Shown piece by piece: positions 7,095 through 16,509 of a DNA stretch of 64,000 nt. Position 1 is the first letter of the stretch. Every line of letters starts with the position of its first letter. The notes under the pieces were generated by a model that made no database searches, was not told the origin of the DNA, and saw only the letters and a program-made list of their open reading frames with translations. The DNA comes from Vulcanimicrobiota bacterium. Its GTDB lineage: Bacteria; Vulcanimicrobiota; Vulcanimicrobiia; Vulcanimicrobiales; Vulcanimicrobiaceae. The stretch lies in the NCBI GenBank assembly GCA_963795855.1, contig CAWCIZ010000002.1:448001-512000 (forward strand), written 5' to 3'. The translations under genes and the position numbers were made by a program.

Positions 7095-8398
7095 ACGCTT
7101 CCTTCGGAGTTCTCGATACGCAAGCGCGGCTGCAGATGCCGCAGCGCCTCCAGGGCTTGCTCGGGCCGGCGCGCGCCCCGTTCGCGGACACGACGCCCTC
7201 CAACGTATGTTTCCAGCACGTCGGCGCTTTCCGCGCGGTACACGACGTGATTGCCGAGCGGAGCCCACGGATCCGCGCGCGTGAGATCGAGAACGACGTA
7301 ATCGGCGAACGCTCCCTCGCGTAAATCCCCCGCGTCCACGTTGAGCGCGCGCGCGCCTGCGGCCGTTCCGAGCGAGATCGCGGTCTTCGCGTCCAGCGCC
7401 GCTCCATCCAAACGCGAAACTTTCTGCAGCAGCGACGCTGCGCGCATTTCGTCGAGGATCGACGGCTTCACGTCCGCATCCGTCCCCAGCCCAACTGAGA
7501 CGCCGGATTCGAGCAGGCCGATGACGTCGCAGACGCCGTCGCCCAAATACTGGTTCGTCGTCGGATTGTGAACGACGCGCGCGCCGCTTTCCGCCAGCAT
7601 ACGCCGTTCTTCGCCGGTAATGTAGATCGCATGGATCGCAACGGTTCGTTCGTTCAAAGCATCGAGTCGCCGGAGAAGCGCTATCGGCGTCGCTCCGTAG
7701 CGCGCCAGCGTTTGGGCGCCTTCGTATTGCGCTTCCGCAACGTGCACGTGCAGCATGCACTCCCGCTCGCTCGCGAAGGCCGACGCGGCGCGAATCATGC
7801 CGTGCGATGCGGCGTGCAGAGAATGCGGCGCGACGCAAACGTGCACGCCGGGAAATTCGGACATGAGAGCGGCGGTGCGTTCTCGCGCTTGCTCGACGGA
7901 TTCCCGAAATGCCGCGGGCGCGTACGCCGCATCCATCCACGTGCGCGCGAATACCAGACGAATACCTGCGTCCGCTGCGGCGCGTATCGCCTGTTGCGCG
8001 TGAGCGTTTCCGGCACCGTTCAAATAAAAGAATTCCGCGACGGTCGTTATCCCGGCGGCGAGCATCTCGTCGAAAGCGAGGCGAAACGTCCAGTACACAT
8101 CCTGCGGCGTCAGTTCGGGAACGATACGGTAGAGCGCGTCGCTTCGCCAGCGCGCGAACGGCAGGTCGTCGGCCCAGCCGCGCATCAGGATTTGATACGC
8201 GTGGCTATGACCGTTGACGAGCCCCGGCATCACGGCGACGTGCGCGCCGTACGACGTTACGGGTGCGCCGGCAAAACGCTGCGAGATATCGGCGAACGTA
8301 CCGCACGCCGCTATTCGATCACCCTTGACGGCAAATGCGAAATCGCGCCGTTCCGATCCGCCCACCAAAGCGCGCGCGCATCGCACGACGGCGGTCAC
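7091..8398 (-). CDS. hutF: Amidohydrolase, formiminoglutamate deiminase (HutF)-like
   Basis: PGLVNGHSHAYQ, AGITTVAEFFYL, APHSL, HVHVAE, GTD; last enzyme gene of the hut operon. Confidence 0.65.
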   Translation of the reverse strand: MTAVVRCARALVGGSERRDFAFAVKGDRIAACGTFADISQRFAGAPVTSYGAHVAVMPGLVNGHSHAYQILMRGWADDLPFARWRSDALYRIVPELTPQDVYWTFRLAFDEMLAAGITTVAEFFYLNGAGNAHAQQAIRAAADAGIRLVFARTWMDAAYAPAAFRESVEQARERTAALMSEFPGVHVCVAPHSLHAASHGMIRAASAFASERECMLHVHVAEAQYEGAQTLARYGATPIALLRRLDALNERTVAIHAIYITGEERRMLAESGARVVHNPTTNQYLGDGVCDVIGLLESGVSVGLGTDADVKPSILDEMRAASLLQKVSRLDGAALDAKTAISLGTAAGARALNVDAGDLREGAFADYVVLDLTRADPWAPLGNHVVYRAESADVLETYVGGRRVRERGARRPEQALEALRHLQPRLRIENSEGSV

Positions 8399-9607
8399 GA
8401 AATGCGCACCCCGCTGCGGTACACGGCCGCGGCAAGGTTGCCGCCGAATTGCCAGCCGAACTCTTCCGCGGAGTCGATCCGCAAAGCAACCAGATCGGCG
8501 GGTGCGCCGGTACGCAGCGTGCCTGCCTGCGCGCGGAGCGATCGCGCCGCAGCGATTGTCACGCCGTACAACGCTTCCGCGGCAGTCATGCCGAAGAATT
8601 TACGCCCGAAGAACGCGACGGTCTGCAGGTTGAAACAGGGCGAAGTGCCGGGATTGTAATCGCTTGCAAGCGCGACGTCGGCGCCCCGTTCGAGCAGTTC
8701 GCGCACAGGCGCGCGCTGCGGAAGATCGAGATACGCAATCGTCGCAGGACACGCGACCGTCACGATGCCGCGTTGCGCGATCGCGGCGACGTCGTCGTCG
8801 CGAATGCAATTGCAGTGGTCCACCGCGTCCACGCCGACCTGCGCCGCCATGCGTGCGGCGGCTCCGTACTGCATTTCGTCGCAGTGCACGCGAAGCCGCA
8901 GTCCGTGGGCGCGCGCCGATTCCAAATAGCGGCGCGTCTGCTCCGCAGAAAAGAATCCGGGCTCGCAGAATGCGTCCGCGAACACGGCGCCGTGCGCTTT
9001 GGCGACCGGCATGCACTGGTCGATCAAGTAATCGACGTAGTCGATCTCGCTCGAAAATTCCGGCGGCAAGGCGTGCGCGCCGAGAAACGTCCCAATCAGG
9101 CGCGGATTGCCGGCGTCGGCTCGGTGCTCGTGCACGAGCGAGAGCGGCTTCCATCTCTCCCGGAGCGTGCAGCGCATAGCCGGTTTTGGTTTCGAGCGTC
9201 GTCGTCCCATGCGCCGCAATTGTCTTCAGGCGGGTGTCGATCTGCTTCCAAAACGCATGAGGATGCTCCAGCGCTTTGCGGGTCTGCGTCACAGTGTACA
9301 GCATCCCCAGCGGCGCCTTTTCTCCGCGCTGCCGCGCGGAAAAATCCGGCTCCCGATTGCCCGCGAAGAGCGGGTGCGCGTGTGCGTCGACAAACCCGGG
9401 AAACACGACGCAATCGGGAAATTCGTGCAACTCGGCGTCGCGCAAGGACGGTGGAAGCGAGGCAACGTCACCGCTCCACGAAATACGCCCGTCTTCTATC
9501 GCGAGCGCGCCGTCGCAAATCGTTCCTAACGCATCGAACGTCACCCCGTGCTGGGCGACGTTCGATGCATTGGTGACGATCGTTTTGGCGCGAACTACAA
9601 GCGCCAA
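8395..9607 (-). CDS. hutI: Imidazolonepropionase (frameshift near 9147, probably sequencing error)
   Basis: [16 protein letters not shown] and [11 protein letters not shown] in one frame; [23 protein letters not shown] in another; TTG start. Confidence 0.9.
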
Positions 9608-11255
9608 TCGATGCCCTTCTCGTCCGCCGTTTCGATGGCCGCATCGTAGCCCGCATCGGCGTGGCGCACGACGCCCATTCCGCAGTCGGTCGTCAGCACG
9701 CATTCCAACCGCTCGCGCGCGTCGTCGCTGCCGTCGGCGACCACGACCATTCCCGCGTGCAGACTGTATCCGATACCGACGCCGCCGCCGTGATGCACGG
9801 AAACCCAGTGCGCGCCGGCAGCGGTATTGAGGAGCGCGTTGAGAATCGGCCAGTCGGCGATTGCATCGCTGCCGTCCTTCATCGATTCCGTTTCACGGTA
9901 CGGCGACGCGACGCTCCCCGTGTCGAGGTGATCGCGGCCGATGACGATCGGCGCTTTGAGTTCGCCGCTGCGCACCAGGTCGTTGAACCGTACTCCCGCT
10001 TTCGCGCGATCGCCGAAGCCGAGCCAGCAAATGCGGGCAGGTAACCCTTGAAACGCAACGCGCTCGGACGCCAGCGAAATCCACCTGCGCAGATGCTCGT
10101 CCTGCGCAAAGAGTCGAGCAGTTCGCGATCGCAGCGCGCGATGTCGGACGGATCGCCCGAAAGCGCGGCGAAACGAAACGGCCCGCTGCCTCTGCAAAAT
10201 AGGGGGCGAATGAACGCGGGCACGAAGCCCGGAAAGTCGAACGCGCGCCCCACGCCGGCGCGCTGCGCCTGCGCTCGCACGTTGTTTCCGTAATCGAACA
10301 CGACCGCGCCGGCGTCCAGAAAATCCAGCATCGCGGTAACGTGCTTCGCGACGGTTTCCAGGCCGCGGCGCTCGTAGTCGTCGGGATCGTTCTTGCGCAG
10401 ATGCTCGGCTTCGCCCGGCGAAAGTCCCATCGGCACGTAGCCGTTCACCATGTCGTGCGCCGACGTTTGATCCGTAACCGCATCGGGACGAAAGCCGGAA
10501 GCGAAGAGTGCGGGAAATTCGTGTCCCGCATTTCCTTCATAGCCGACGGAAAGCGGCTTACCGCTGCGGCGCGCTTCTTCGACGAGTCGCACCGCCTCGT
10601 CGCGGGATTCCGCGAGCACGTCGAGATATCGCAGATCGCGGCGGCGCTCCAAGCGCGAACGATCGACGTCGATGACGAGCGCGACGCCTTCATTCATCGC
10701 GATCGCGAGCGGTTGCGCGCCGCCCATGCCGCCGATGCCCGCGGTCAAACAGACGCGGCCTTTGAGCGTGCCGCCGAAATGCTGCCGCGCGAGCTCCGCG
10801 AAGGTCTCGTACGTCCCTTGCACGATGCCTTGCGTGCCGATGTAGATCCAAGAGCCGGCAGTCATCTGCCCGTACATCGTCAGGCCCTGCGCCTCGAGTT
10901 CGCGAAAAACTTTCCAGTCCGCCCACTTGGGCACCAGATTCGAATTGGCGATCAGCACCCGCGGAGCGCGCTCGTGCGTCTTCCACACTGCCACCGGTTT
11001 GCCGCTCTGGACGATCAGCGTCTCGTCGTTCTTCAAACGCTTGAGCGTACGAACGATCGCATCGAACGCTTCCCACGAACGCGCCGCGCGTCCGTTACCT
11101 CCGTACACGACCAAGTCTTGCGGACGCTCCGCGACGTCGGGGTCGAGGTTGTTCATCAGCATGCGCAGCGCCGCTTCCTGCGGCCACCCCTCGCACGAAC
11201 GCGTCGAGCCGCGCGGCGCGCGAATGGTACGAGGAGCGCTCAGCGTCGTGGCCAT
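9595..11255 (-). CDS. hutU: Urocanate hydratase (frameshift near 10113, probably sequencing error)
   Basis: [33 protein letters not shown]-terminal [24 protein letters not shown] in a second frame. Confidence 0.95.
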
Positions 11256-11267
11256 CACATTTCCTTT

Positions 11268-12815
11268 CTACACCAGTTCCATGCCGATCGCGTTTTGCGC
11301 GGCCTGCACGAGCGCTCCGCTGTGAATCAGTTCGCGCGCGGCGACGATGTCCGGCGCCGGCACGCGATCGTCGGTCAACGGTTCGATCCGCTCGCGCGCG
11401 GCGTCGTACGCGGCTTGCGTGCCCGCACCCGATTTGAGCGGGCGCCGAAAATCGGTCGCGACGAGTGCGCCGAGCAGTTCGCACGCAAGCGAACCTTCAA
11501 CGTTTTGCAGGACGCGATCCAAGTTCACCGCAGCGGTCATGCCCATGCTGACGTGATCTTCTTGCCCAGCGGAAGTTGGAATCGAATCGACGCTGTTGGG
11601 CCACGCGAGCCCTTTGTTCTCGGAAACCAGGGCCGCCGAGGAATACTGCACGATCATCAAACCCGATTGCAAACCCGAACGTCCGGTCAGAAACAGGGGC
11701 AACCCGCGCTCTTCGGCGTTCAGCAGAAGATACAAGCGGCGTTCGCTGATGCCCGCGAGTTCCGCGAGCGACATCTTGAGCAAGTCGCAGGCGAGCGCGA
11801 TCGGCTGTCCATGAAAATTTCCGCCGGTCAGAAATTCTCCGTCGTCCGGAAAGACGAGCGGATTATCGGTCACGGAGATGGCTTCGGTTTCGATCACGCC
11901 GCGGGCATGCCGCGCTGCGTCTCGCACGGCGCCGTGCACGACCGGAATGCAGCGATAGGAGTACGGATCTTGCACGCGGCCGCACTCGCGGTGCGACTCC
12001 ATGATTTGCGAGCCGCGCAGCAATGCGCGTAGATTGTCGGCGACGCGGGCTTGTCCGGGATGCGGCCGCAGCGCGTTGAGCCGTCGATCGAAAACGCGAT
12101 CCGTGCCCAGGAACGCTTCCAGCGACATCGCTCCGATGATGTCCGCGGCAGCGAGCAATCGTTCCGCGCGCAATTGGCAGAGGGCGGCTATACCGGTCAT
12201 GACTTCGGTGCCGTTGACGAGCGCGAGCCCCTCTTTCGCGCCGAGTTCGATCGGCTCGAGACCGGCGAGTTGCAACGCGCGCGCACTCGGCATGCGCTCG
12301 CCGCGATAAAACGCCTCTCCTTCGCCGATGAGCGTGAGCGTCATGTGCGCAAGCGGCGCGAGATCGCCGCTTGCACCGACCGAACCTTGCCGGGGCACGA
12401 CCGGCGTTACGCCGCGATTGAGCAGCCCGACCAGCAGATCCAGCGTCGATTCCCGTACGCCGGAATGTCCCGCGGAAAGGGAACTGACGCGTAAAACGCC
12501 GGCGGCCCGAACGAACTCACGAGCCAGCGGCTCGCCGGTGCCGGCGGCATGGCTGCGCACCAAATTCAGCTGCAGTTGCGCGGCGTCTTTCGGCTCGACG
12601 GTAACGTTCGCAAGACGTCCGAAGCCCGTCGTCACGCCGTAAATCGCATCGCCGTTGCCGAACTTCTCGTCGACGAGCCGGCGCGCGGCGGCGACCCGCT
12701 CGCGTGCGCTCTCCGTGACGCGCACCGGCGCCTCGTTTTGCGCGACGTCGCGAATGACTTCGAGCGTGAGGTGCTTGCCGTCGAGGTCTACCGTGGGAAG
12801 GGCGGTCGTGGTCAT
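11268..12815 (-). CDS. hutH: Histidine ammonia-lyase
   Basis: YGVTTGFG, MIO motif GSVGASGDLAPL, QDPYSYRC, GGNFHG, QEDHVSMG. Confidence 0.96.
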   Translation of the reverse strand: MTTTALPTVDLDGKHLTLEVIRDVAQNEAPVRVTESARERVAAARRLVDEKFGNGDAIYGVTTGFGRLANVTVEPKDAAQLQLNLVRSHAAGTGEPLAREFVRAAGVLRVSSLSAGHSGVRESTLDLLVGLLNRGVTPVVPRQGSVGASGDLAPLAHMTLTLIGEGEAFYRGERMPSARALQLAGLEPIELGAKEGLALVNGTEVMTGIAALCQLRAERLLAAADIIGAMSLEAFLGTDRVFDRRLNALRPHPGQARVADNLRALLRGSQIMESHRECGRVQDPYSYRCIPVVHGAVRDAARHARGVIETEAISVTDNPLVFPDDGEFLTGGNFHGQPIALACDLLKMSLAELAGISERRLYLLLNAEERGLPLFLTGRSGLQSGLMIVQYSSAALVSENKGLAWPNSVDSIPTSAGQEDHVSMGMTAAVNLDRVLQNVEGSLACELLGALVATDFRRPLKSGAGTQAAYDAARERIEPLTDDRVPAPDIVAARELIHSGALVQAAQNAIGMELV

Positions 12816-12867: not shown

Positions 12868-13386
12868 CTAGAGTTTCGACCAATCCGCGCGGTGCGGCGT
12901 CCCATAAGGCGGACCGTTTTGAATCACGATTTCCTCGTGGTCGCGCAACGGAATCGAACGCGGATCGGCGTTCCACGCGCGACCATTCACGCTCACGCGC
13001 AGCGAACGCCCGCGCGGCGCGCGGACCGGTCCGGCCACGCTGCGCCCTAAATCGCCGCCCCAGATGTCGAAGAACTCTCCGAGCGTGAACGTGCGCACGG
13101 TCGGCGCTTCGATATGGATGATGCCGTCCGCCGCGTGCGTGTGCACCCAATACAGACAACCGGCAATCGGCATGATGCCGATCTGAGCCGGCACCTCGAC
13201 CCTGCGGCCGCGATTGAAAATCTGCAGATGCGTATGGATGTGTTCCGCCGCATACTCCTGTGCATCGCAGTGTATGCCGTCGATCGGCAAGCCGGACATG
13301 AGGCTTTGCGCGGACGCGCGGCCGTGCCCGAGCGCGCCGCAAATCAACGCTGCTGCGGAAAAGAGAACGGCGATTCGAAGCTTCAC
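12868..13386 (-). CDS. Secreted hypothetical protein with His/Cys motifs
   Basis: Signal peptide from GTG (VKLRIAVLF); HIHTHL, CLYWVHTH..DGIIHIE, FTLGEFFDIWG; start uncertain. Confidence 0.7.
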   Translation of the reverse strand: MKLRIAVLFSAAALICGALGHGRASAQSLMSGLPIDGIHCDAQEYAAEHIHTHLQIFNRGRRVEVPAQIGIMPIAGCLYWVHTHAADGIIHIEAPTVRTFTLGEFFDIWGGDLGRSVAGPVRAPRGRSLRVSVNGRAWNADPRSIPLRDHEEIVIQNGPPYGTPHRADWSKL

Positions 13387-13399
13387 AAAAGCCCTTTCC

Positions 13400-13470
13400 G
13401 GTGGAAAGCGTGGATATGGAGAGGATGCACTGTGCATAAACGCAACTTTTTGTGGAAACGTTGTGAGTAG
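13400..13470 (-). promoter_or_regulatory. Cluster of five co-oriented DnaA-box-like 9-mers
   Basis: Minus strand TTATGCACA (13431-39, perfect TTWTNCACA), GTTTCCACA (13451-59), CTACTCACA (13462-70), ATATCCACG (13409-17), CTTTCCACC (13400-08). Confidence 0.5.
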
Positions 13471-13483
13471 AGCGTTCGCCGTC

Positions 13484-13512
13484 TTGCTACGCCTTTTTCG
13501 TAGTGATACCAT
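13484..13512 (+). promoter_or_regulatory. sigma70-type promoter with extended -10
   Basis: TTGCTA-17 nt-TACCAT preceded by TGA; predicted TSS about A13519. Confidence 0.7.
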
Positions 13513-13518
13513 GCAAAC

Positions 13519-13710
13519 ACTTCGATAAAACGAAGCGCGACGAACGTAGGTCGCGACCGGCCATGTTGACGATGCAGTCGCTCGTCGGCGATCCGAGTGG
13601 ACGGTCAAAGTTTCGCGGTCTCGTCAGTAGGACTTCTTTACGGGAGTCAAACAGGCGGAACAAGCCAAAACAAATACGTCGGGGCCTCGGAGCAATCCGA
13701 GGCCTTTGTC
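13519..13710 (+). ncRNA. Candidate stand-alone structured small RNA (~190 nt), family not recognised
   Basis: Lies between the promoter and an intrinsic terminator; several hairpins; no SD-led ORF that ends before the terminator. Confidence 0.6.
13681..13710 (+). terminator. Intrinsic terminator
   Basis: GGCCTCGGA-GCAA-TCCGAGGCC then TTTGTCATT. Confidence 0.75.
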
Positions 13711-13732
13711 ATTGTGCCGTTACGTGCGAAAT

Positions 13733-13766
13733 AAAAAAGCCGCACTGGGGAGAAGCGCGGCTTTTT
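13733..13766. terminator. Bidirectional intrinsic terminator downstream of the WYL gene
   Basis: AAAAAAGCCGC...GCGGCTTTTT. Confidence 0.75.
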
Positions 13767-13779
13767 CAGGGCGGACGGA

Positions 13780-14775
13780 TTACTTGGAAACGGGCAGTTC
13801 GTATTTCGCGGCGATCTGCGCGATCAGCATGCGAACGCGATCGCGCACCGAAGCGGGAGCGACGATCTCCGCTTGCGCGCCCCAGCCCAGCACCCAGCGC
13901 GCGAGTTCATCGACGTCTGCGACGTGATACGTGATCTCCACCGAACCGTCGGCGCGGCGATCCACCGCGCGATCGGCGACGATGCGCGCGGCCACGGCGG
14001 CCTTCGCGACGCGCGAGGCGAACCGCACGCGCACTTCGGTCGTGTGCTCGTTGTGCAGCACGCCGCTAATCGAACTGGACGCGAAATCGTCGACGCTGAA
14101 ATTCTGCGGTTTGGTGAACGTGCGGCCGAGCACGTCCAGGTCGGCGATGCTGTCGACGGCAAAGACGCGCTTGTCGCGGCGGTCGTGGTCGAATGCGACG
14201 CAGTAGACGCGGCCGCTGCTCACGATGAAGCCGTACGGATCCGCAACCCGTTTGGAACGCTGCCCTTCCTTGTCGGTGTAGGTAAAGCCGACGCTGCGCG
14301 AGCTGCGCTCGGCAGACGAGAGCAGCCCGAAGATCCGTTCGCCCTCCTGGTCCAGCTGCGTTTCGCTGAGCCGGAACGTCACGGGCGAGGTGCCCTCGAC
14401 GCGCTCTTTGACCCCGCTGCCCGCCGCGCCGGTGATCTTCTCGGTCACTTCGTCGACATAGGTCCCGATCGCGCCGCCTAAACTTGCGCTGATCGCGCGA
14501 AGCGCGACGAGCCCGAACAACTCGCTGCTGTTCAGTTCCAACCGCTTCAGACTATAGCCGTCGCTGAACCGGTACGTGTTCGTCGCGCGGTCGAAGTACC
14601 ACGGAAACCCGGCGTCCGCCAGCACGGCTAAATAGCGCCGCAAGCTGCGAGTCGACGGGCGATGCTCGCCTTCGCTGATGCGGTCTTTGAGTTGTTCGAA
14701 AGAGAAGCGGCCCTCGTCGATGGCGTTGAGCAGCCGGACGAGAAGCACGATTTTCGGCTCGTTCGTGCGTTCCAT
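13780..14775 (-). CDS. HTH-WYL-WCX transcriptional regulator (PafB/PafC/YafY-like)
   Basis: N-terminal HTH (STRSLRRYLAVL), WYL core (FTY..RVADPYG..GRVYCVAFD..KRVFAVDSI), WCX (WVLGWGAQAEIVAPASVR); probable leaderless ATG. Confidence 0.92.
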   Translation of the reverse strand: MERTNEPKIVLLVRLLNAIDEGRFSFEQLKDRISEGEHRPSTRSLRRYLAVLADAGFPWYFDRATNTYRFSDGYSLKRLELNSSELFGLVALRAISASLGGAIGTYVDEVTEKITGAAGSGVKERVEGTSPVTFRLSETQLDQEGERIFGLLSSAERSSRSVGFTYTDKEGQRSKRVADPYGFIVSSGRVYCVAFDHDRRDKRVFAVDSIADLDVLGRTFTKPQNFSVDDFASSSISGVLHNEHTTEVRVRFASRVAKAAVAARIVADRAVDRRADGSVEITYHVADVDELARWVLGWGAQAEIVAPASVRDRVRMLIAQIAAKYELPVSK

Positions 14776-14853
14776 TGGCATATTGTGCCAGTTAAGTGGC
14801 GAGACGGCCATCAAAATGACCTCAAAACCGCGCCTTCGCTGCTCAGAGAGCCA

Positions 14854-16509
14854 TCAGCCTGGCGTTTCCGTCGGCTCGGGCGCCGGAAGCGGCTTTGGAA
14901 AACAGCCATTTGGCGCAGTAATGGGCGGCACCGAAGGGTTCGGCGGGGTCGCCGTGACGCCGAGTTCGATGGGATAGCTCGAACCGCCGTCGGTCATCGT
15001 TTCCACGGGCAGCGTCATCTTCGCGTGCGGCCCGACCGTAAGCGGCGGTCCAATTTGATAACGGTCCGAAACGCGCGCGCAGCCGAGCTGCACCAGTTGC
15101 CCGTTTACCAAGAAGCTGCTTCGCACCGAACCGCCCATCGGCCGCTCGTACAAGTACAGCGTCTGCGGCTGATCGAGCGGATTGTCGATTTGGAAGTTCA
15201 CCGTTCGCACGACGCCGTATTCGCCGTAATCGTGGCCCGTCGGAACCGGCTCGCCGGCCGGATCGGCGGCGGGTGGAGTTTGTGCGCCGTATTGAATGCC
15301 GGCGTCGGGGCCCGGAGCCGTAAACGCGACCGCGTCCAGCGCATAGTTGACCAGCGAAAACGCGCCGGTGCGATGATGCCCGTCGTCGGGCAATTGCGGT
15401 TGCGCGAGGTATGCGGCGAGCTGCGCATCCGTCAAGCCGCCCTGCGGCAGCGAAAGAACGGTCACGGTGATCGCTCCGCCGCTTAGCACGCGAATGCCGA
15501 CGCTTCCCGCGGCTCCGTCGAGACGGTTCAGCGCGAATTCGTCCGCGACGTACGGCGCCTGCGCGCCGATGTCGACGACGATACCTTCGTTCAGCGGTTT
15601 CTGCGTGAGAAAGTCACGGGAGACCGCGTGCCCGACGCTCATGACGTCCATGCTCGGCCCCGCCGATGCATCGATCAATTGTACCGTCGACGGCTGCGAA
15701 CCACTCGAACGCAGTACCAGCGCGAGCTGCCGCGGGTCGTCCGTATTTTCGTGATAATAATACAAGCGTGCGGGGACGTTTGGCTCGACCTGCGCGCGGA
15801 ACAGCACGCCCGCAGCGGTAAGCCGTTCCGGATCGTCGTCATAGAAGAGAATCGGCGCAGAAAACGGGTCCGCCGCGACGTTTTGAATCGTCACCGTCGA
15901 TGTCGCGGCAACGTCGAGATACTCGTCGCCGCCGGCGATCGTTACCGGCACCGGAACCGCAGCGCTCGCGCCGGGGCCGAGCGTTTGCGGGAGCGTGAAG
16001 GGTGCGATCTGCGGCGCCGCGACGCCGGGTTGCAGTTGCACGGAGCGCAAGAGCGTTTTTTGGATTTGCAACGTCAGCCATTGCGTATCTACCTGCGTTC
16101 CGGTAACGCGCAGAACGATTGACGGCGGCACCGTTCCGGCATCCTGAGCCACGTGAACCGGAATTTGCACGGTTGCACCGGTCGCGTCGTTCAGCGTAAT
16201 CGTCGCGCGCCCCGTCTGCTGCAATGCGGTAACCGTCAGCGTGCGCGCCTGCTGATCGACCACAAGCGTCACGATCGGCGTATCGACGGTTGCCGTGAAC
16301 GGACCCGTACCACTTTGAATCGCGATCGTTTGCGATTGCGCGGGGTGCAGATTTACGACGGACGCGCTCACCGCGAGCGGCGCAGGTGACGGCGTAGCGG
16401 ACGCCGGCACGGATGCGGAAGGCGAAGGCTGCGGGCTAACGAGATCGGGCGGCGGTGGAGGCGGCGTGGCCTGAATGGCCAGCGCAAGGACGGCGAAGAA
16501 AAACGGCAC
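14854..16509 (-). CDS. Secreted hypothetical protein, Pro-rich linker and beta-rich domains
   Basis: Signal peptide, 551-aa ORF, FYDDDPE..GVLFR and GEYGV motifs. Confidence 0.7.
   Translation of the reverse strand: MPFFFAVLALAIQATPPPPPPDLVSPQPSPSASVPASATPSPAPLAVSASVVNLHPAQSQTIAIQSGTGPFTATVDTPIVTLVVDQQARTLTVTALQQTGRATITLNDATGATVQIPVHVAQDAGTVPPSIVLRVTGTQVDTQWLTLQIQKTLLRSVQLQPGVAAPQIAPFTLPQTLGPGASAAVPVPVTIAGGDEYLDVAATSTVTIQNVAADPFSAPILFYDDDPERLTAAGVLFRAQVEPNVPARLYYYHENTDDPRQLALVLRSSGSQPSTVQLIDASAGPSMDVMSVGHAVSRDFLTQKPLNEGIVVDIGAQAPYVADEFALNRLDGAAGSVGIRVLSGGAITVTVLSLPQGGLTDAQLAAYLAQPQLPDDGHHRTGAFSLVNYALDAVAFTAPGPDAGIQYGAQTPPAADPAGEPVPTGHDYGEYGVVRTVNFQIDNPLDQPQTLYLYERPMGGSVRSSFLVNGQLVQLGCARVSDRYQIGPPLTVGPHAKMTLPVETMTDGGSSYPIELGVTATPPNPSVPPITAPNGCFPKPLPAPEPTETPG

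What the first reader, a model, noticed from the sequence alone, without database searches (positions are those of the whole stretch)
13484..13710. Unannotated stand-alone structured RNA (~190 nt) with its own promoter and terminator, facing a WYL regulator
Seen in sequence: TTGCTA-17-TACCAT promoter, TSS near 13519, and a GCAA-loop terminator at 13681-13710. Between them are: a 5' hairpin (CTTCG/CGAAG, 13520-35); an ~87-nt bulged rod (GACGA 13539/TCGTC 13621; GGTCGCGA 13549/TCGCGGTC 13613; CCGGCCA 13557/TGGACGG 13598; TGTTGACGA 13564/TCGTCGGCG 13582); a mutually exclusive local hairpin CGCGAC/GTCGCG (13536-55); two small hairpins (GACTTCT/GGGAGTC; GGC-GGAACAA-GCC); and an A-rich linker. No same-strand gene follows, so it is not a riboswitch leader. 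It lacks hallmarks I know for tRNA, tmRNA, SRP and RNase P. It is 6S-sized, but its ends do not pair by eye. Inference: a lineage-specific sRNA, perhaps RNA-polymerase-binding. WYL domains are known to sense single-stranded nucleic acids, so a link to the neighbouring gene is possible but unshown.
Basis: partly seen in the sequence, partly recalled or inferred. Interest (0 to 1): 0.8.

Follow-up and report, generated by a model that had tools for sequence, protein, structure and literature searches.

The report
DnaA-boxed pseudoknotted RNA gene family
This is a real gene for an intricately folded small RNA of no catalogued family, found in one to five copies across an order of mostly uncultured soil bacteria, and nearly every copy sits behind binding sites for the protein that starts chromosome replication, which hints that the RNA reports replication status to the cell.

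Summary
The RNA gene is real: promoter, start at 13519, about 190 nt, terminator. It has no Rfam match. Homologues occur in at least 102 of 115 sampled genomes of the family and 5 of 5 of its sister family (Vulcanimicrobiota), often as 2-5 separately promoted copies. Covariation supports four helices plus a pseudoknot joining the loop of hairpin 2 to bases just before the terminator, solved with three different sequences. 6S, Y RNA, CsrB, tmRNA, SRP, RNase P, riboswitch and peptide readings fail their tests. WYL is a neighbour in 69 of 80 loci but is not required. Best reading: a DnaA-activated, protein-binding RNA that couples replication state to another process; its partner is unknown and nothing was tested at the bench.

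The parts
13400..13470 (+). Array of same-orientation DnaA-box-like 9-mers at -119, -110, -88 (TGTGCATAA, 13431-13439), -68 (TGTGGAAAC, 13451-13459) and -57 from the start site
   Evidence: the -88/-68 pair is the only such pair in the 3.06-Mb genome; the -119 and -57 boxes have 3 mismatches and are read by eye from their phase
13484..13512 (+). Housekeeping-type promoter: TTGCTA, 17 nt, extended -10 TG-n-TACCAT
   Evidence: tmRNA, SRP and 6S-candidate genes of the genome have similar promoters without DnaA boxes
13519..13713 (+). Predicted ~190-nt noncoding RNA (start inferred, not mapped)
   Evidence: contigs of relatives in 4 of 4 RNA libraries laid cover parts of 13531-13657
13520..13535 (+). 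P1, 5' hairpin
   Evidence: 96.8% of cells paired in type A, 90.8% in type B
13537..13554 (+). P2 hairpin; its loop (13544-13548) forms the pseudoknot
   Evidence: 95.8% paired, 3 of 5 pairs change on both sides; 98.8% in type B
13555..13606 (+). P3, bulged arm; distal part is lost in some copies
   Evidence: basal helix 4 of 5 pairs change on both sides, inner helices 96.7% paired; short forms L027, L021, L020
13610..13671 (+). P5, long arm with conserved internal loops; absent in a few minimal copies
   Evidence: upper part 93% paired, lower part; missing in L338, L339
13675..13679 (+). 3' strand of the pseudoknot (pairs with the P2 loop)
13681..13713 (+). Intrinsic terminator hairpin of the RNA
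   Evidence: a strong hairpin follows the pseudoknot strand in 177 of 179 copies
13734..13766 (.). Second hairpin flanked by A and T runs, likely terminator of the convergent WYL gene
   Evidence: sequence; inference
13780..14814 (-). wHTH-WYL-WCX regulator, distant relative of DriD/PafBC-type proteins; conserved neighbour
   Evidence: Pfam WYL and WCX; PDB matches incl. PafC, PafBC; RNA within the fetched flank in 69 of 80 loci
12868..13419 (-). Divergent gene for an uncharacterised protein, followed by hutH-like histidine ammonia-lyase gene (11268-12815)
   Evidence: no Pfam family; Atlas hits are hypothetical proteins; syntenic in relatives

Best explanation
A family of stand-alone noncoding RNA genes whose promoters are bound, and most likely activated, by the replication initiator DnaA, and whose product acts as a folded shape that binds a protein or complex rather than by base-pairing to mRNAs. 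Shown computationally: the gene, its fold (P1; P2 whose loop pairs with the 3' end; two peripheral arms, either of which can be lost), its order-wide spread with 1-5 separately promoted copies, and the phased DnaA-box array. Inferred: DnaA binds the boxes cooperatively on one face of the helix; since they all lie upstream of the -35 element (-57 to -119) it activates rather than blocks; RNA level therefore follows free DnaA (growth, readiness to initiate); extra copies raise the dose, as for titrating RNAs; the closed P1-P2-pseudoknot core protects both ends and is the binding surface. It would work like B. subtilis sda (DnaA-activated checkpoint signal) but with an RNA as output. The bound partner is not identified.
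For: Boxes: 167 of 178 distinct upstream regions have at least one and 149 at least two forward boxes (at most 2 mismatches to TGTGGATAA), 6 have a reverse box; positions peak at -57/-58, -68/-69, -78, -88/-89, -99/-100, -110, -118; 2 of 40 control promoters in G000 have one box and only this locus has two. Boxes travel with copies at unrelated loci and with inner tandem copies that have no divergent gene. Reversed-pattern control: 1 match in 301 genomes against 94 genomes with the real pattern. Same box types lie upstream of the genome's dnaA, whose domain IV keeps the DHTT signature (significance of that motif recalled). Consensus TTATNCACA, cooperative binding and activation of sda through upstream boxes: PMC4447404, passages; DnaA as activator or repressor: PMC8203912, parts 1-2 of 6. 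Shape over sequence: pseudoknot kept with three unrelated sequences, own partner better than permuted partners in 0 of 300 permutations for types A (100 copies) and B (56); whole-structure covariation above all 500 shuffles and all slid controls. No conserved reading frame; no complementarity of 8 nt or more to the dnaA leader.
Against: No binding, expression or mutant data. RNA evidence is weak: contigs of relatives in runs chosen because they hold this stretch, no strand or ends, DNA not excluded. DnaA can repress from nearby boxes (nrdAB), so the sign is inferred. 11 of 178 copies lack a box at this threshold. Genomes are kin, so counts overstate independence; shuffle controls ignore phylogeny. 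Hfq is present, so base-pairing is not excluded; only an exact-complement scan of one genome was run. Some complete genomes of the family gave no copy with any query (e.g. g5, g22, g48), so the RNA may be dispensable.
Confidence: 0.45

Rival explanations
1. The RNA is a ligand or inhibitor of the neighbouring WYL regulator, damping a DNA-damage response while replication runs normally.
For: RNA within the fetched flank of 69 of 80 WYL loci, across both families; RNA and this WYL orthologue are both confined to the order in what was searched; the WYL fold is Sm-like (PMC11804915, passages).
Against: Convergent 3'-to-3' layout; second copies lie far from WYL; WYL orthologue is in 30 of 34 family genomes picked largely for lacking an RNA hit, and only 10 of these showed a diverged copy beside it; a 12-nt ssRNA did not activate PafBC; hutH and the unknown gene are equally syntenic.
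Confidence: 0.15
2. DnaA-regulated, Hfq-dependent sibling sRNAs that base-pair with mRNAs.
For: Hfq is encoded; own terminator; sibling copies are common among such sRNAs (recalled).
Against: Almost no conserved unpaired sequence: the one long loop is tied into a pseudoknot and its sequence differs by type; type B terminators have almost no U tail; longest complement to 3762 candidate ORF 5' regions was 13 nt apart from the overlapping locus itself.
Confidence: 0.12
3. An RNA-polymerase-binding RNA that is a functional analogue of 6S, Ms1 or CoRP.
For: Right size; unrelated polymerase-binding RNAs exist in different lineages (PMC11077062, passages); 6S scores are low in this family.
Against: No 5'-3' closing stem or central bubble; a rod-like 6S candidate lies elsewhere, about 55-75 kb from dnaA in G000, G005, G011, G013, G021; that paper found one abundant type per species.
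Confidence: 0.12
4. The selected function is mainly at DNA level: a datA/DARS-like DnaA titration or nucleotide-exchange locus, with the RNA tuning or reporting it.
For: One of only four clusters of four or more boxes within 150 nt in G000; position is roughly kept: 0.55-0.76 of the half-chromosome from dnaA for one copy in 8 of 8 genomes computed, 0.14-0.17 for a second copy in 3.
Against: Boxes sit at fixed helical distance from a promoter; the transcript shows strong structural selection; no IHF-sized spacer; conserved position may be plain synteny. datA/DARS features are recalled.
Confidence: 0.08
5. The repeats are read by another transcription factor, not DnaA.
For: Several boxes have 2 mismatches; 10-11-nt phased repeats are used by other oligomeric regulators (recalled).
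Against: The -88 box fits TTATNCACA exactly in many copies and perfect TGTGGATAA boxes occur; the repeats upstream of the WYL gene are a different motif.
Confidence: 0.1

Closest known systems
B. subtilis sda promoter (DnaA-activated checkpoint gene)
   Same: Cluster of DnaA boxes upstream of a promoter of a small stand-alone gene; output expected to follow DnaA (PMC4447404 passages)
   Different: Output here is a structured RNA in several copies; activation and target are untested
Protein-titrating RNAs (6S, Ms1, CoRP, CsrB/Rsm)
   Same: Stand-alone gene, strong promoter, terminator, similar size, several copies, shape conserved over sequence
   Different: No 6S rod with bubble, no repeated unpaired GGA (0.1-0.4 per copy), no Rfam match; a loop-to-3'-end pseudoknot; DnaA boxes
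Bacterial Y RNAs (YrlA/YrlB, Yrn1)
   Same: Tandem copies; the window's P2 region fits the GNCGAAN0-1G motif (PMC4201824 passages); P3 has a bulged helix that recalls the Ro60 site (recalled)
   Different: Ro60/TROVE found in 2 of 61 genomes and not in G000; no tRNA-like domain; motif not kept across types
CcnA of Caulobacter (cell-cycle ncRNA)
   Same: A noncoding RNA tied to a replication/cell-cycle regulator (search listing and start of abstract only)
   Different: Modulates CtrA and GcrA by its title; no sequence or structural match was tested or seen
Orphan structured RNA classes such as raiA, ROOL, OLE (recalled)
   Same: Pseudoknotted, conserved by covariation, function open
   Different: No match to any of 4227 Rfam models; different size and context

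Membership tests
Any Rfam family | Score at or above the family's gathering threshold | tested here: not met
   Best 22.1 bits against 39 (terminator only) in the window; 3 sub-threshold hits in 18 homologous loci
6S RNA | Long rod closed by 5'-3' pairing with a central bubble | tested here: not met
   Four separate helices plus pseudoknot; 6S candidate elsewhere
6S/Ms1/CoRP | Binds RNA polymerase | not testable with these tools
   Needs RIP-seq or pull-down
Y RNA | Ro60 gene in the genome, within about 4 kb | tested here: not met
   TROVE in 2 of 61 genomes, none in G000 (86% complete); criterion
Y RNA | GNCGAAN0-1G motif near the 5' end and tRNA-like domain | tested here: inconclusive
   Motif present in the window's P2 but varies in homologues; no YrlA match in Rfam
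CsrB/Rsm RNAs | Many unpaired GGA motifs | tested here: not met
   2.5-2.9 GGA per copy, 0.1-0.4 unpaired; CsrA itself is present
tmRNA, SRP RNA, RNase P RNA | Family model match; single housekeeping copy | tested here: not met
   All three found elsewhere in G000 above cut-off
Riboswitch or leader | Consistent same-strand downstream gene | tested here: not met
   Downstream gene is convergent at WYL loci and varies elsewhere
Small-protein gene | Conserved start and frame | tested here: not met
   The internal ATG context is in 31 of 117 type A copies and gives products of 8 to about 60 aa in differing frames
Hfq-dependent base-pairing sRNA | Conserved unpaired seed, U-tailed terminator, Hfq binding | tested here: inconclusive
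   Hfq present; no seed seen, U tail weak in type B; binding not testable
DnaA-regulated promoter (sda/nrdAB type) | Several TTATNCACA-like boxes at conserved positions near the promoter | tested here: met
   167 of 178 with one, 149 with two or more, one orientation, 10-11 nt phase
DnaA-regulated promoter (sda/nrdAB type) | DnaA binds and changes transcription | not testable with these tools
   Needs footprinting, ChIP and reporter assays
Mobile-element or phage RNA | Occurs on plasmids or phages, or beside a transposase, reverse transcriptase or nuclease | tested here: not met
   No match in plasmid or phage collections; one type B pattern scan of viral contigs gave 2 hits, both inside coding sequence; neighbours seen are housekeeping-type genes (named by eye for loci outside the window)

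The most novel reading that the evidence does not exclude
The RNA is a feedback regulator of chromosome replication: DnaA switches it on and the pseudoknotted core binds DnaA or another initiation or replisome factor, making it an RNA counterpart of Hda, SirA or Sda and a bacterial trans-acting RNA that controls initiation by protein binding.
Probability: 0.15. Interest if true: 0.92.

Novelty: categorically new. Interest (0 to 1): 0.72.

Why it matters
The direct DnaA targets in the passages read are protein genes; my searches for a DnaA-driven noncoding RNA or for this family in print listed none by title or abstract start (subscription papers and supplementary motif catalogues were not seen). 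A multi-copy RNA class whose promoter is, in this genome, the only site with this DnaA-box pair would be a new output of the initiator and a direct way to ask how slow-growing soil bacteria tie replication to other processes. The lineage has a cultured member (PMC9758169, listing), so it may be testable; I did not check that strain for the RNA. 'Categorically new' refers to the RNA class and its control; if it proves a simple protein decoy it is a new variant of a known kind. Another agent of this scan noted the same family in another genome.

Tried and rejected
Y RNA idea (motif likeness): dropped after the Ro60 search. An alternative pseudoknot between GTTGACG and CGTCAGT was considered by eye and dropped because both strands have better-supported partners; it was not counted formally. 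Generic promoter/terminator scan: found neither signal. R2 hits under about 32 bits in other families were treated as noise; of six inspected, five looked like coding or unrelated sequence and one (L230) was real. The single R1 hit in family f3 (G097, E 2.8e-4) was not inspected. DnaA-box pattern hits in f3 lie upstream of a glutamine-synthetase-like gene on the other strand and show no such RNA; those inspected in other families look like origins or AT-rich box clusters; G209 and G230 were not inspected. A loose structural descriptor was useful beside WYL genes but pure noise genome-wide. No second copy in G000. Duplex of the RNA with the dnaA leader was no better than random regions (-103 against -108 +/- 8). 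Read depth cannot rank the RNA against its neighbours; contigs also covered parts of both flanking genes, and nothing covered 13665-13766. Covariance models were not run outside the class; other phyla and the metagenome collection were not searched, so 'confined to the order' means not found with these queries.

Full report
Observation. No same-strand gene follows; the convergent gene has WYL and WCX domains. Rfam gives nothing near a threshold in the window or in 18 homologous loci. tmRNA, RNase P RNA and SRP RNA lie elsewhere in the genome, as does a weak but rod-shaped and positionally conserved 6S candidate.

Distribution. BLAST found the stretch in 21 of 36 family genomes, in conserved order hutH, unknown gene, RNA, WYL, often as two or three tandem copies each with its own promoter and terminator. 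Record titles of WYL relatives name Eremiobacterota/Vulcanimicrobiota. Model R1 (19 sequences) hit 89 of 115 family genomes, 0 of 3 of the sister family and 1 of 32 of the other family of the class, weakly. A diverged type B, seen in records titled Ca. Elarobacter and Ca. Lustribacter, was modelled as R2 (28 sequences) and hit 9 of 9 genomes of genus g24 with arrays of 3-5 copies, plus G125 and G134. Further diverged copies beside WYL in G020, G033 and G115 bring the same sample to at least 102 of 115. A type C is in 5 of 5 genomes of the sister family. Ten genomes outside the order gave no close WYL orthologue (at most 32% identity) and no such promoter beside their WYL genes. Many genomes have a second copy at unrelated loci. 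G000 has one copy. Unpublished genomes: G025 gave 1 of 19 seed sequences (L012), G027 an example of a short form (L020), G014 one diverged copy (L315), G153 one count, G048 one of the ten outside genomes; no conclusion depends on them.

Structure. On 19 type A sequences the model P1, P2, P3, upper P5 and pseudoknot has 91.8% of cells paired and 17 of 40 pairs changed on both sides, above all 500 shuffles; slid controls reach at most 39.5%. On 28 type B sequences: 90.1%, 20 of 42, pseudoknot 100% paired with 3 of 6 pairs covarying. In type A the pseudoknot is weaker in that alignment (81.9%). An alignment-free test on 159 of 179 copies (20 dropped because the P2 loop was not parsed) found at least 4 pairs in 93%, better than permuted partners in 0 of 300 trials per type, and much lower across types, whose loop/tail sequences are unrelated. 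The structures were drawn from these sequences and the controls ignore phylogeny, so the numbers are not probabilities; the three independent sequence solutions are the stronger argument. Some copies lack the distal P3, others lack P5: the constant core is P1 plus P2 knotted to the 3' end. No reading frame is conserved.

Promoter. Upstream of the -35 element lie same-orientation 9-mers matching the DnaA box. 167 of 178 distinct upstream regions have one, 149 two or more, 6 a reverse one, at 10-11-nt phase; among 40 promoter-like controls in G000 only this locus has two. Types A and B were collected without using the boxes; the five type C copies were found through them. Boxes accompany copies far from WYL and inner tandem copies, so they belong to the RNA gene, not to the divergent neighbour. 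In G000 the -88/-68 pair is unique; dnaA and its boxes are on another contig, and in 8 near-complete genomes the RNA is 0.27-1.6 Mb from dnaA, so this is not the origin. Consensus and precedent come from passages of PMC4447404 and parts 1-2 of PMC8203912.

Expression. Fifteen runs held a small share of the stretch. In the four laid, short contigs of relatives cover parts of 13531-13657, the longest pieces in contigs of 112-155 nt. This fits a discrete small RNA but shows neither strand, ends nor level, and the runs were chosen for holding it.

Mechanism. Shown: gene, fold, spread, box array. Inferred: DnaA binding (about 0.85), activation rather than repression (about 0.7), action by protein binding rather than mRNA pairing (about 0.65-0.7). 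Together they give a DnaA-switched RNA that signals replication state, like sda but as an RNA; confidence 0.45. The WYL protein is the obvious candidate partner (69 of 80 loci) but is neither needed for the gene nor always accompanied by it, has a different upstream motif, and its relative PafBC was not activated by ssRNA. Y RNA, CsrB, 6S, riboswitch and peptide readings fail defining tests.

Novelty. No Rfam family; ten literature searches, seen mostly as listings, showed no description of this family; supplementary motif catalogues were not read and may bear on that. An earlier agent's note on another genome (e1-7659525) reports twin RNA genes behind DnaA boxes in one family; I saw it after reaching the same reading, and it is not independent evidence. 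Added here: order-wide range, three sequence types, arrays of up to five, the compensated pseudoknot and the minimal core.

Noticed in passing
window 14779-14900 (upstream of the WYL gene) and L084-L121: Repeats of a TTTGA motif at about 11-nt spacing plus TGGCACA are conserved upstream of the WYL gene in many relatives; a candidate autoregulatory or other operator, distinct from the DnaA boxes.
   Followed up: partly
G000:C2:142216-142300: A same-orientation DnaA-box cluster resembling the upstream half of the RNA promoter, with no RNA behind it, ahead of a nitrile-hydratase-like gene (named by eye); possibly a relic of a lost copy.
   Followed up: partly
G000:C3:855004-855150: Another cluster of four box-like 9-mers ahead of a DNA-methyltransferase-like gene (named by eye).
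   Followed up: no
L252-L254 (family f3): A conserved DnaA-box pair 20 nt apart lies upstream of a glutamine-synthetase-like gene, with a hairpin leader, in three genomes.
   Followed up: partly
G000:C3:331936-332122: Highly diverged 6S RNA candidate (19.6 bits, below cut-off) that folds as a rod and keeps its place near dnaA in relatives.
   Followed up: partly
G000:C3:397477-398778: The dnaA domain IV match lies in an open frame of only 94 aa against about 450-500 in relatives, suggesting a frameshift or assembly error; hutU (9595-11258) and hutI (8395-9703) in the window also appear split across frames.
   Followed up: no
window 12868-13419: Uncharacterised protein with histidine-rich HxH motifs, tightly syntenic with the RNA and WYL genes; Atlas clusters are all hypothetical.
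   Followed up: partly
L172, L173: A copy sits between a HIT-family gene and a yqeY-like gene (named by eye), a position where rpsU is usual (recalled).
   Followed up: no
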